NCBI GenBank assembly: GCA_024236095.1
Contig: JACKLD010000012.1
Coordinates: 149,695-213,694, forward strand
DNA from: Pseudomonadaceae bacterium
GTDB taxonomy: Bacteria > Pseudomonadota > Alphaproteobacteria > UBA2136 > UBA6156
Direction: 5' to 3'
DNA: 64,000 bases
Position numbers: made by a program
In this document: positions 36,001 to 39,000 of the stretch, one piece after another
Layout: each line of letters starts with the position of its first letter
How positions within the stretch are numbered: the stretch's first letter is position 1

Positions 36001-39000
36001 ATGTACGCAGCCATCTGGCCTTACACCCGCCAAGGCGATACCCGCTTCGACAACAACCTCGCCACCCTCAACACACCCGCCACCACCATCGCCGTGCAAG
36101 AGGGAAATATCACCGCCGAACTGGTGAACGAACTCTTCCCCAACGCCAAACAGTACGCCATCCCCGGCAATACCGATTTCGGCCTCGCCATCGAGGCCGT
36201 GCGCAGCGGCAAGGCCGACGTGGTGCTGTGGGACGCCAACGGCGCCTATCAATACCAACTGAACAACCCGAAGACCCTGCACCAAGTCAAACTGGCCGAG
36301 CCATTGCAAATCATGCCCTTCGCCATCCCCTTCCCGCGCGGCGAGCACACTCTCAAACACCTGATGGACACCGCCCTCGACGACATGCTCAACACCGGCA
36401 CCTTTGGCCGCATGATTGACAAATGGGAACCCGCCCCCGGCATGTTCCTCCGTCTCGCAAAGCCTTACCAATGACCTCCGTTAGTCCCGCCAAACACCTC
36501 GGCCAACACTTCCTCACCAACCCGCGCACCATTGCGCGCATTGCCGATGCCGTGGGCGGCACCGCAGGCCAAACGGTGGCCGAAATCGGCCCGGGCACCG
36601 GCGCCCTCACCGCCGAATTGCTGCGCCGTGGCCTCCATGTCCTCGCGGTGGAAATGGACGACCGCTGCTATCCCACGCTGGAAGACCTCTCCGCTCAACA
36701 CGACAACCGCCTCACCCTCATCAAGGGCGATGCCCTGAAACTCGACACATGGCTGCCCCACCTCCCCCCCGGCAGCCCCATCTGCGGCAACCTGCCCTAC
36801 AACGTCGGCACCGAAATCACCACCCGCCTCCTCCTCGCCCCCTATCAACCCCCAACGGCCGAAGGCCGTCATCCCCGCGCAGGCGGGGATCCACGTTACA
36901 CCGCAGCGCAGCGTTCCATGTCCCACCCCATGGTGTTCATGTTACAAAAAGAAGTCATCCAACGCCTCACCGCCACCGGCCCAAGCCCGCACTGGGGCCG
37001 CCTCGGCGTCATAACCCATTTATTATGCGAAGCCCGCCGCCTGTTCGATGTCCCCCCCGGCTGCTTCAACCCGCCTCCCAAGGTGATGAGCAGCATCGTG
37101 CAACTCACGCCCTTGCCTGCTCCCCGTTACGAAGTCGACTTTGCCAAGCTTGATACCCTCCTCCGTCATGCCTTCGGCCAACGCCGCAAGATGCTGCGCA
37201 GCAGCCTCAAAACGCTTCTGTCGGAAGACCAAATCACCGCCTGCGGCATCCCCGCCACCGCCCGCCCGGAAGAACTGTCTACACAAGAACTCTGCAATCT
37301 TTCCAATGCAATAAAATGATTTATTAATCAAATAAATCAACAATCAAGCTGCCCGCTTCTCCACACCCAACGCTTCCACCATCGCGCAAATTGCCTTGTG
37401 CGCCGCCTCCACCGCCACCGCATCGGCGCCGCGTACCACCAGCGCCGTGCCCGGACGGTTATCGATGCGGTAGGGGTAGCTTCCCACTTCCAACTGGGGA
37501 TAATCCCCCTGCACCGCCGCCAATCCGTCGGCGATGTCGCTCTCCCGCGCCCACACGTCCAGCGTCTTGCTATGGATCGGAGCCCCCTGCCCCAGCAAGG
37601 GCACGCAGGCCGCCAGCATCACCTGCATGGCACGCGGGATGCCCGCCAACACAAATACATTCTCCATGCGGCAGGCGGGGGCCCAGTCGCCCTCGTGCCA
37701 CACCAGTGCGGCACCTTCAGGATAATCAGCCATACGCAGCGTCGCCTCGGTGGCGCGGTTGCCGTAGGTGGTGCGCAGGTGCTCTTCCACCCGCGTGTTG
37801 CGGGCCACCGCCACGCCAAACGCCTTGGCCACGCTGACGATGGTGATGTCATCGTGGGTCGGGCCGATGCCGCCGGTGGTGAACACATAACCGTAGCGCG
37901 CGCGCAGGGCGTTCAGGGCATCGACAATCTCGTTCTCGATATCCGGCACCACGCGTACCTCGCGCACCGCCACACCCACGTCGGCCAGCCGCCGCGCAAT
38001 GTGCGCCACGTTGGCATCCTCGGTGCGCCCCGAGAGGATTTCGTTGCCGATGATGAGGATGGCAGCGTCAGTCATCTTTGAATCCCTTCTTCCAAGCTTC
38101 TTCAAAAGCAACCAAGTGTCCTTTGCTGTCATCCTTCAGCAAATATTCCCGCACATGTGCCTCTTCCTTGGCCAAGGCGCCTGCCGTCACGTAGCCCGCC
38201 AGATGCTGGTATTTCAGGTACAGCAAGTAGGTATTGAGCACATCGGTTTCGCAGTAGTCGCGAATCAGCCCAACCTCGCCCGCCGCAAACAGCTTGCCCA
38301 CCTTGCTGCCTTCAATGTCCATCTTGCCGGGCAGGCCCGCCAGCGTGCACACTTCATCCAGCCGACCGACGCCACGGGCGGCGCCGTGGTCGCCCAGTGC
38401 ATCCAGCAAGTCGACGTGCCAGACGGCATCGTAGCGCGCGCCGTAGTTGCTCCATTTGTCACCCGCCTGAAACAGCCAGCTGGCTTTCACGCCGTGTTTC
38501 AGCGCGCGTATCTTGATGCACGGCACGTCAAACCCACGGCTGTTGAAGCCCACCAGCCGCACCGGCGTGCCTGCCCGCATGCATTTGGCGCCGTAGTCGT
38601 ACCAGGCTTGCACCAGCGCCGCTTCGTCGTCGTTTTCTTCGCCGATACAGCCCAACCGTTCCAGATGGTAGCTTTCAAAGCCATCTACCTCCTCGATACT
38701 GGCCAGCAAACAGCCGATGGCCACGATGCGATGAAACGGCAAGCGCGGGAACTCGCTGCCGCCGAAGTTTTGTTCTTTCATGCGGTCCCAAATCAGCTGG
38801 GTCACCGCCGCATCACCCAGCCCCTCACAGGCCTCGCCCCACAGCTCCCGCGCCAAGGCGACATCTGGCACCGTTTCCAAATCAAAGACCAAGAGCTTGC
38901 GTGGGCGAATCATCGCAGGCATCCTAGCGCGCAATCATGCAGTACGAAAGCCCCCTCATCCCCGCCACCCATGTTTCCCGCGAGAAGCGGTTTTTCATCC

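What the first reader, a model, noticed from the sequence alone, without database searches (positions are those of the whole stretch)
36854..36920. Palindromic repeat element inserted in frame inside the ksgA/rsmA coding sequence
The ATCCCC-N8-GGGGAT element, with the same flanks as the copies at 53718 and ~33950, sits inside the 16S rRNA dimethyltransferase gene. It adds about 23 residues ([23 protein letters not shown]) between the NLPY motif region and the conserved MLQKEV helix, with the reading frame preserved. The same peptide, [11 protein letters not shown], appears in junk ORFs elsewhere that are generated by this repeat. The enzyme has tolerated a repeat insertion in a surface loop.
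Basis: seen in the sequence. Interest (0 to 1): 0.55.

Follow-up and report, generated by a model that had tools for sequence, protein, structure and literature searches.

The report
Palindromic repeat inside the rsmA gene

Summary
rsmA/ksgA (36471-37319, +) is an intact 282-aa ORF that passes the RsmA equivalog model. It carries a 25-codon insert (36849-36923) that solved KsgA structures and most orthologues lack. The insert is a 6-bp hairpin, then the 28-nt unit CGTCATCCCCGCGCAGGCGGGGATCCAC, then a tail.

The unit meets every listed feature of the published CGTC-1 REP family (equated there with Neisseria dRS3 and Rickettsia RPE-6). It also matches the published search motif (SRM) for targets of Ssn GIY-YIG single-strand nucleases. 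That motif hits 11 sites in the window against 0.4 expected.

Three 94-96-aa GIY-YIG genes, each bracketed by inverted copies, lie between nuo genes. One carries the same variant as rsmA (38/38 nt).

AlphaFold places the insert in a low-confidence loop between helix 110-125 and strand 154-159. dN/dS is about 0.35-0.4, so the gene is under purifying selection.

Intragenic CGTC REPs were catalogued in 2013, so this is a new member of a known kind.

One point is less ordinary. Two diverged relatives carry the element at the same site. In one, the core is read in another frame and has a compensatory stem change matching that genome's own variant. This points to maintenance at the nucleotide level, re-insertion, or an independent insertion.

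The parts
36471..37319 (+). rsmA/ksgA, the 16S rRNA (A1518/A1519) dimethyltransferase gene. 282 aa, intact. Identical to NCBI protein MCP5404802.1.
   Evidence: TIGR00755 222.7 bits against a cutoff of 171. PDB KsgA hits down to E=1e-39. Fold match with target-normalised TM 0.82-0.90. Protein identity.
36849..36923 (+). The 75-nt (25-codon) in-frame insert encoding [25 protein letters not shown]. Boundaries are good to about two codons.
   Evidence: Codon comparison with the insert-free orthologue P0005. Unaligned in PDB alignments. pLDDT 43-58. All three forward frames are free of stop codons.
36855..36869 (+). Companion hairpin ACGGCC-GAA-GGCCGT (6-bp stem, 3-nt loop). Its last CGT supplies the start of the CGTC tag.
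   Evidence: Predicted as RNA and as DNA. The same module lies upstream of the 33964 copy and in the rsmA of L001 and L003, with a compensatory stem change in L001.
36867..36894 (+). The 28-nt CGTC-1 REP / Ssn-related motif: CGTC tag, 8-bp stem ATCCCCGC, loop GCAG, stem GCGGGGAT, tail CCA(C).
   Evidence: Matches the published SRM search pattern. Meets the CGTC-1 feature list in PMC3733652. The 8-bp stem is predicted, with DNA folding z = -3.4 for the 96-nt region.
36895..36923 (+). 3' tail of the element, GTTACACCGCAGCGCAGCGTTCCATGTCC. It is shared with the ssn-proximal copy at 54124(-).
   Evidence: Alignment A4.
53720..54151 (-). SRM - GIY-YIG gene - SRM unit carrying the same ATCCCC..GGGGA(T/C) variant as rsmA. 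The gene is about 53779-54069 (96 aa from M57). The SRMs are at 53720-53747 (+) and 54124-54151 (-).
   Evidence: Pfam GIY-YIG E=3e-15. Translation and probable start. SRM hits. 57-nt inverted arms (I1). 38/38 nt identity to the rsmA copy (D14).
51013..51376 (-). Second SRM - GIY-YIG (51053-51337, 94 aa) - SRM unit, with the ATTCCAGCG..GCTGGAAC variant. It lies between nuoK and nuoJ.
   Evidence: I4.
56399..56775 (-). Third SRM - GIY-YIG (56433-56723, 96 aa) - SRM unit, with the ATTCCAGCGAAAGCTGGAAT variant. It lies upstream of nuoG.
   Evidence: I2; 36-nt arms, 100% complementary.
33964..33991 (+). Intergenic (lptD-surA) copy of the same variant. The same 5' hairpin is present, with an extra 22-nt hairpin module between it and the core.

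Best explanation
A composite copy of the genome's own CGTC-tagged REP family landed in the rsmA codons for the loop between helix alphaD and strand beta5 of the Rossmann domain. The family is also known as dRS3/NTS in Neisseria, and as SRM, the target motif of Ssn GIY-YIG single-strand DNA nucleases. The copy consists of a small hairpin, the 28-nt palindromic unit and a tail.

It survived for three reasons. Its length is a multiple of three. Five of its six frames have no stop codon. The loop it enlarges is variable in length among orthologues.

The copy is translated as a 25-residue Pro/Gly/Ala/Arg-rich segment that is probably disordered. The enzyme remains functional and under purifying selection. 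The peptide itself has no conserved sequence across lineages, so at the protein level it is a tolerated passenger.

Shown here: the identity of the repeat, the insertion, the intact frame, the loop position in the model, purifying selection on the rest of the gene, and Ssn-like genes bracketed by the same repeat in the window.

Inferred: that the protein is active, that the loop faces away from the rRNA, and that Ssn-like nucleases are involved in spreading or maintaining the repeat. No transposition mechanism is known for this family.
For: Repeat identity:
- The CGTC tag, 8-bp stem starting AT, 4-nt loop and CCA tail match the CGTC-1 description in PMC3733652.
- The published SRM pattern from PMC11893778 hits 36867-36894. 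It hits 11 sites in the window against 0.39 in Markov-shuffled controls.
- The 26-nt core occurs exactly in more than 120 contigs from many phyla.

Partner genes:
- Three 94-96-aa single-domain GIY-YIG ORFs are each bracketed by inverted SRMs.
- One of them carries the rsmA variant.

Insertion:
- It is absent from PDB KsgA sequences and from most orthologues.

Tolerance:
- AlphaFold mean pLDDT is 90.5 overall, and 43-58 across the insert, which lies between H110-125 and E154-159.
- The fold matches KsgA structures.
- Loop length varies from 5 to 12 residues among insert-free orthologues.

Functional gene:
- TIGR00755 is above its cutoff, invariant residues are kept, and dN/dS is 0.35-0.41.

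No peptide-level constraint:
- L001 keeps 16 aa and L003 has 46 aa read in another frame.
- Five of six frames are open.

Precedent:
- Intragenic CGTC/GTAG REPs are listed in PMC3733652. The list includes R. conorii tRNA (G-N7) methyltransferase with CHSRESGNP in the same frame as here, and dimethyladenosine transferase RC1022.
Against: - There is no direct evidence that the protein is made or active.
- The loop anchor is about 9 residues after the position aligned to E. coli Phe124 (my residue mapping from the alignment). Phe124 stacks on G1516 of helix 45 (PMC8216452). A 25-residue loop with four Arg could therefore reach the rRNA. I had no model coordinates with which to measure this.
- The palindrome is far better conserved between the window and L003 than neutral DNA should be: 3 differences in 47 nt against pS = 0.39, P = 4e-7. 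A purely passive relic does not explain that.
- Membership of the GIY-YIG genes in the Ssn clade (cd10448) was not tested by sequence.
Confidence: 0.8

Rival explanations
1. The intragenic copy is kept as a palindrome at the DNA (or RNA) level rather than being a decaying relic. One route is gene conversion from other genomic copies. Another is repeated nuclease-initiated repair or re-insertion at the existing element, with Ssn cutting single-stranded DNA just 5' of the motif. A third is selection for the hairpin itself. In each case the element inside rsmA tracks its genome's current repeat variant.
For: - The window and L003 differ at 39% of synonymous sites and 21.5% of all sites in rsmA. 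Yet the hairpin, core and tail differ at only 3 of 47 nt.
- The core is read in different frames in the two genomes, so selection on amino acids cannot explain the conservation.
- The two core differences are one compensatory pair (ATCCCC..GGGGAT to ATGCCC..GGGCAT). They convert the core to the variant seen in three other L003 copies. The window has four ATCCCC copies and no ATGCCC copy.
- The L001 hairpin also has a compensatory pair (ACGGCC/GGCCGT to ACGCCC/GGGCGT).
- Extra modules in L003 rsmA and in the 33964 copy both sit between the 5' hairpin and the CAT of the core. This is near where SsnA is reported to cut.
Against: - Only three genomes are available, with 15 kb and 6 kb of context for two of them.
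- L001 has lost half the palindrome, so decay is tolerated.
- The L003 in-gene copy keeps the tail CGTTACA typical of the window's copies, not the tail of L003's other copies. Any conversion tract would therefore have to be very short.
- No mechanism for mobility or conversion of CGTC REPs has been shown (PMC3733652, PMC11893778).
Confidence: 0.3
2. The three lineages acquired their inserts independently, because this spot in rsmA is an insertion hot spot or the only tolerant place in the gene.
For: - The three inserts differ in module composition, length (25, 16 and 46 aa) and reading frame, and each has the local variant.
- Intergenic copies are not positionally conserved between the window and L003. 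Turnover is therefore fast relative to the divergence of these genomes.
- PMC3733652 reports different REPs at about the same site in recB of two Xanthomonas species.
Against: - All three share the same 5' hairpin at the junction.
- The 3' junction motif is similar in all three: CGTTCCATG, GATTCCTTG and GATTCTTTG.
- The window and L003 share the CGTTACA tail.
- The three insert-bearing sequences are also each other's closest relatives.
Confidence: 0.15
3. The added loop has been co-opted as a functional extension of RsmA, for example an Arg-rich loop that contacts rRNA.
For: - The insert has been retained in three lineages over dS of at least 0.55.
- It has four Arg in 25 residues.
- The anchor lies on the helix whose E. 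coli counterpart carries Phe124, which contacts helix 45.
Against: - No peptide sequence, length or frame is conserved among the three lineages.
- The model predicts disorder.
- Insert-free orthologues are the rule.
Confidence: 0.05
4. The insert is an assembly artefact, or the gene is dead.
For: The window comes from a metagenome-assembled genome, and short repeats can cause mis-joins.
Against: - Both halves of rsmA are contiguous and in frame.
- Independent assemblies (two SRA runs for L001 and L002, plus GCA_049297695.1) show an insert at the same site.
- dN/dS is well below 1.
Confidence: 0.02

Closest known systems
CGTC-tagged REPs, family CGTC-1 (Di Nocera, De Gregorio and Rocco 2013, PMC3733652). 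The paper equates these with Neisseria dRS3 and R. conorii RPE-6.
   Same: The CGTC tag, 8-bp stem beginning AT, 4-nt loop and CCA tail are all present. The family is multi-copy, mostly intergenic and frequent in Alphaproteobacteria. Occasional in-frame intragenic copies encode peptides such as CHSRESGNP and VMPAEAGI, which are the same frames as RHPRAGGDP and VIPAQAGI here.
   Different: The host is an uncultured MAG lineage not in that survey. The stem variant is ATCCCCGC rather than ATTCCCGC. The target, the alphaD-beta5 loop of RsmA, is not listed there. R. conorii ksgA RC1022 is listed only with an N-terminal copy. Here the core travels with a 5' companion hairpin and a 3' tail.
NTS / Ssn-related motifs and the Ssn GIY-YIG single-strand DNA nuclease family (Nat Commun 2025, PMC11893778)
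   Same: The 28-nt unit fits the published SRM pattern, and the copy at 52038 is an exact NTS. Single-domain GIY-YIG genes of 94-96 aa are bracketed by inverted motifs, as in the published NTS-ssnA-NTS architecture. Protein and motif variants co-vary within one genome.
   Different: Cleavage activity and cd10448 membership were not tested here. The word 'intragenic' does not occur in the main text of that paper. Three paralogous units inside one nuo operon were not looked for in the paper.
Rickettsia palindromic elements inserted in frame in protein-coding genes (RPE-1; cited as references 13 and 14 of PMC3733652; details from my own knowledge of Ogata et al. 2000 and 2002)
   Same: Palindromic repeats are inserted in frame into housekeeping genes. 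They are translated and are tolerated in surface loops.
   Different: RPE-1 is 100-150 nt, AT-rich and specific to Rickettsia. This element is 75 nt, GC-rich and built around a pan-bacterial 28-nt core.
REP/REPIN-RAYT systems (GTAG-tagged REPs with IS200/IS605-like tyrosine transposases)
   Same: Both involve short hairpin repeats, a small associated nuclease gene flanked by the repeats, and recognition of single-stranded hairpins.
   Different: The tag is CGTC rather than GTAG. The associated gene is a GIY-YIG gene rather than a HUH/RAYT gene. No transposition activity has been shown for this family.

Membership tests
CGTC-1 REP (PMC3733652) | Unpaired 5' CGTC (or TGTC/CCTC) tag | tested here: met
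   CGTC at 36867-36870, immediately before the stem.
CGTC-1 REP (PMC3733652) | 8-bp stem with complementary A and T in first and second positions, and a 4-nt loop | tested here: met
   ATCCCCGC / GCAG / GCGGGGAT at 36871-36890. The stem is predicted by folding.
CGTC-1 REP (PMC3733652) | Short unpaired 3' tail fitting CCA | tested here: met
   CCA at 36891-36893.
CGTC-1 REP (PMC3733652) | Repeated many times in the genome, mostly intergenic | tested here: met
   11 copies in 64 kb against 0.39 expected. Nine are intergenic, one is at a gene's 3' end and one is internal. The whole-genome count is not available.
Ssn-related motif (SRM; PMC11893778) | Fits HGTCWYN(0-2)YYVSBRHN(0-5)WNVSBRGN(0-2)RNCYNB | tested here: met
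   Regex hit at 36867-36894.
Ssn-related motif (SRM; PMC11893778) | The genome encodes an Ssn homologue whose gene is flanked by the motif on both sides | tested here: met
   Three GIY-YIG ORFs are bracketed by inverted SRMs. That they are true Ssn homologues is inferred from size, domain and architecture.
Ssn-related motif (SRM; PMC11893778) | Cut as single-stranded DNA by the cognate Ssn | not testable with these tools
   Needs a biochemical assay.
Ssn nuclease family (for ORFs 51053-51337, 53779-54069, 56433-56723) | Single-domain GIY-YIG protein of about 94 aa | tested here: met
   PF01541 at E = 2e-17, 3e-15 and 1e-13, covering nearly the whole 94-96 aa.
Ssn nuclease family (for ORFs 51053-51337, 53779-54069, 56433-56723) | Belongs to CDD cd10448, or BLAST E < 1e-10 to N. 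meningitidis SsnA | not tested
   No CDD library was available and no SsnA sequence was held. The nearest PDB relatives are UPF0213 proteins 1zg2 and 1ywl, at only E = 7e-6.
RsmA/KsgA | Passes the equivalog model and keeps the SAM-binding and NLPY motifs | tested here: met
   TIGR00755 222.7 bits against 171. EIGPGTGALT, NLPY, FMLQKEV and PPPKV are present and invariant.
RsmA/KsgA | Two-domain KsgA fold | tested here: met
   Foldseek target-normalised TM of 0.82-0.90 to 3tqs, 3fut, 4jxj, 1qyr and 7o5h.
RsmA/KsgA | Dimethylates A1518/A1519 | not testable with these tools
   Needs complementation or primer extension.
Rickettsia palindromic elements (RPE) | Sequence membership in an RPE family of Rickettsia genomes | tested here: inconclusive
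   PMC3733652 equates R. conorii RPE-6 with CGTC-1, so this is the same superfamily. No Rickettsia sequence was compared here.

The most novel reading that the evidence does not exclude
An Ssn-associated palindromic repeat trapped inside a housekeeping gene is not a fossil. It is kept as an intact hairpin and updated to each genome's current repeat variant. This would happen by short-tract gene conversion, or by nuclease-initiated re-insertion at the existing element, under the sole filter that the reading frame stays open. If so, it would be in vivo evidence that the Ssn/SRM system copies or homogenises its motifs, a mechanism not yet shown for this family. It would also explain how the same site in rsmA can hold the same core in different frames in lineages separated by dS > 0.5.
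Probability: 0.25. Interest if true: 0.6.

Novelty: new member of a known kind. Interest (0 to 1): 0.3.

Why it matters
In itself this is one more case of a palindromic repeat tolerated inside a gene, which is useful mainly for annotation. The [17 protein letters not shown] and IPACAGMT peptides flag repeat-derived sequence. The 282-aa RsmA should not be called a pseudogene or a novel domain.

The locus has wider value as a compact natural test case for the recently described Ssn/SRM system. One window holds three motif-bracketed GIY-YIG paralogues with two motif variants, several solo motifs, and one motif inside a gene whose orthologues allow the element's history to be read.

The history seen here has three features: the same site, different frames, and compensatory stem changes that match each genome's own variant. 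This hints that the motifs are actively copied or homogenised. That question is open for a repeat family found across many phyla, including Neisseria, Rickettsia and Wolbachia.

Tried and rejected
- An exact-protein contig look-up for the window's own RsmA found nothing on record. The source is known only as NCBI protein MCP5404802.1 on a 505,967-bp contig.
It shows breadth but gives no per-genome counts, and it did not return the source genome.
- I looked in the window, L001, L002, L004 and L005 for an empty site matching the L003 fabH insertion. No fabH is present.
- Longer RsmA homologues P0093 and P0106 were checked for the same insert. Their extra residues are in a different loop and are not repeat-like.
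- Rfam found no known RNA family anywhere in the window.
- The terminator scan found nothing at the palindrome. It found only a weak 5-bp stem at 36916-36933, within chance expectation. The REP hairpin has no T-run after it.
- No clean target-site duplication was found at the insert borders. ACCCCCA and CACCCCA flank it, but this is not convincing (my reading).
- The SsnA sequence was sought in the supplements of PMC11893778, but none are held.
- Pseudogene and artefact readings were rejected.
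Full report
**Observation.** The window has an intact 282-aa ORF at 36471-37319 (+).
- It scores 222.7 bits on the RsmA equivalog model TIGR00755, against a cutoff of 171.
- It is identical to NCBI protein MCP5404802.1, from a 505,967-bp MAG contig.
- The 20-mer ATCCCCGCGCAGGCGGGGAT lies at 36871-36890. It recurs exactly at 53724, with 1 mismatch at 33968 and with 2 mismatches at 54128(-). Chance expectation at up to 3 mismatches is 0.03.
- A 38-nt unit at 36863-36900 is 100% identical to 53716-53753.

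**It is an insertion.**
- phmmer alignments to Rickettsia bellii (4jxj), Thermus (3fut) and E. coli (7afo) KsgA break into two blocks. About 24-25 query residues in between have no counterpart.
- In an alignment of 18 orthologues, most (250-260 aa) go from the helix after NLPY straight into xMxFMLQKEV.
- Codon by codon against P0005, the extra segment is 25 codons, 36849-36923, encoding [25 protein letters not shown].

**What the element is.** Folding predicts two adjacent hairpins. The DNA z-score is -3.4.
- The first is ACGGCC-GAA-GGCCGT.
- The second is ATCCCCGC-GCAG-GCGGGGAT.

The second hairpin, with its CGTC head and CCA tail, meets every feature of the CGTC-1 REP family of Di Nocera et al. 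2013 (PMC3733652).
- That paper equates CGTC-1 with Neisseria dRS3 and R. conorii RPE-6.
- It finds the family mainly in Alphaproteobacteria.
- It already lists intragenic, translated copies. These include R. conorii tRNA (G-N7) methyltransferase, with CHSRESGNP in the same frame as RHPRAGGDP here, and R. conorii dimethyladenosine transferase, with an N-terminal copy.

A 2025 paper (PMC11893778) redefined the Neisseria repeat as the 28-nt NTS, CGTCATTCCCGCGMAVGCGGGAATCYRG.
- It generalised the NTS to Ssn-related motifs (SRM).
- It showed that the small GIY-YIG protein SsnA cuts single-stranded DNA next to the motif in a strand-specific way.
- ssn genes are typically flanked by the motif.

The published SRM pattern hits 11 sites in this window, against 0.39 in shuffled controls. 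One hit is 36867-36894 in rsmA. The 26-nt core is found exactly in more than 120 contigs from Alpha-, Beta-, Gamma- and Deltaproteobacteria, Planctomycetota, Rubrivirga, Elusimicrobia and others.

**Partner genes in the window.** Three small minus-strand ORFs are single-domain GIY-YIG proteins:
- 51053-51337 (94 aa)
- 53779-54069 (96 aa, counted from M57 of the longer ORF)
- 56433-56723 (96 aa)

Each is bracketed by an inverted SRM pair: 51013+/51349-, 53720+/54124- and 56399+/56748-.
- The three units lie between genes of the nuo operon.
- The middle unit carries the ATCCCC..GGGGA(T/C) variant found in rsmA. The other two carry ATTCCAGCG..GCTGGAA(C/T).
- The rsmA element aligns over about 60 nt with the ssn-proximal copy at 54124(-), including the tail GCGCAGCG(C)TTCCAT.
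- I could not test membership in the Ssn clade by sequence, because no SsnA sequence or CDD model was available.

**Position in the protein.**
- AlphaFold2 with the 18-sequence alignment gives mean pLDDT 90.5 and pTM 0.86.
- The insert lies between helix 110-125 and strand 154-159. Ten-residue block means are 78, 43 and 58, and residues 132-142 are below 50.
- The model matches KsgA structures with target-normalised TM of 0.82-0.90.
- By the standard class I methyltransferase topology, the helix-to-strand loop lies at the N-terminal end of the strands, on the side opposite the SAM and adenine pocket. This is inference, not measurement.
- By my mapping from the alignment, the insert starts about 9 residues after the position aligned to E. 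coli Phe124. Phe124 stacks on G1516 of helix 45 (PMC8216452). Contact of a long, Arg-containing loop with rRNA therefore cannot be excluded.

**The gene is alive.**
- Family-invariant residues are present.
- Nei-Gojobori dN/dS outside the loop is 0.35 against L001 and 0.39 against L003, with dS about 0.55.

**Relatives.** The two closest homologues in 5.8 billion proteins also carry an insert at this spot.
- P0002 has 72% identity (74% in the alignment). It comes from L001 and L002, two separate sequencing runs. It keeps the 5' hairpin with a compensatory stem change (ACGCCC/GGGCGT) and only the left half of the core, giving 16 aa.
- P0003 has 64% identity (72% in the alignment). It comes from L003 in GCA_049297695.1. 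It has a 46-aa insert with the following parts:
  - the same 5' hairpin
  - two extra hairpins
  - the core CGTCATGCCCGCGCAGGCGGGCATCCACGTTACA, read one frame over as GVMPAQAGIHVT
  - a (TACAACC)x4 run

The shared junction modules argue for common ancestry. The different frames and module content argue for later remodelling or re-insertion.

The hairpin, core and tail differ at only 3 of 47 nt between the window and L003. rsmA itself differs at 21.5% of sites overall and 39% of synonymous sites. This gives P = 4e-3 and 4e-7 respectively. The two core differences are a compensatory pair that yields the variant seen in three other L003 copies. The window has only the ATCCCC variant.

Because the frames differ, selection on the protein cannot explain this conservation. 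I therefore rank nucleotide-level maintenance (gene conversion, re-insertion at the existing element, or hairpin selection) as the main rival or refinement. The sample of genomes is too small to settle it.

L003 also has an in-frame copy in fabH (VRHARAGGHPGF). Intragenic copies therefore recur in this clade.

**Why it survives.**
- The 75-nt insert is stop-free in all three forward frames and in two of the three reverse frames.
- Its length is a multiple of three.
- The loop varies in length among orthologues.
- Nine of the 11 copies in the window are intergenic and one forms a gene's C-terminal tail. Internal copies are thus rare survivors.

**Verdict.** The element belongs to a published repeat family for which intragenic copies are documented, so this is a new member of a known kind and of modest interest. 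The orthologous-site comparison and the co-resident Ssn-like units give a small but real lead on how these motifs are propagated.

Noticed in passing
window 51013-51376, 53720-54151, 56399-56775 (minus-strand genes): Three paralogous GIY-YIG (Ssn-like) genes of 94-96 aa are each bracketed by inverted SRM copies. They are inserted between genes of the nuo (complex I) operon: nuoK/nuoJ, nuoH/nuoG, and upstream of nuoG. The proteins are 48-63% identical to each other. The more divergent one has the more divergent motif variant.
   Followed up: partly
window 46240-46300 (minus): The nuoM-like ORF (46240-47847) ends inside an SRM copy, giving the C-terminal tail ...VIPAQAGTQSDGGGVHE*. Just before it is a 10-aa tandem duplication, AMDMWRAPVE x2.
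   Followed up: partly
window 52038-52105: Two exact NTS-type units (CGTCATTCCCGCGAAAGCGGGAATCCAG) lie in opposite orientation, 12 nt apart with their CCAG tails facing each other, between nuoI and nuoJ.
   Followed up: no
window 33800-33946 and 35395-35541: A 147-nt direct repeat (89% identical) lies just downstream of lptD (31671-33788) and again just downstream of surA (34088-35332). It is a different repeat family, with no Rfam match.
   Followed up: no
window about 21500-24400: A long array of degenerate coding repeats with a period of about 276-290 nt (60-83% identical). It looks like a repetitive adhesin-type protein.
   Followed up: no
L003 7516-7543 (rsmA of GCA_049297695.1): A perfect heptanucleotide run (TACAACC x4) lies inside the rsmA coding sequence, within the repeat-derived insert. 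A change of one unit would shift the frame, so it could act as an on/off switch for RsmA.
   Followed up: partly
L003 10879-11919 (fabH) and L003 about 7080-7130 (rsmA 5' part): fabH of the related MAG carries an in-frame SRM copy (…SSPPVRHARAGGHPGFIPQ…). Its rsmA has a second, unrelated 15-aa insert (GGLEPALRSPNGEVW) near residue 33.
   Followed up: partly
whole window (source record): NCBI labels the source MAG 'Pseudomonadaceae bacterium'. However, the nearest RsmA relatives that carry a source name are mostly 'Alphaproteobacteria bacterium' MAGs, and the best PDB match is Rickettsia KsgA. The taxonomic label looks doubtful.
   Followed up: no
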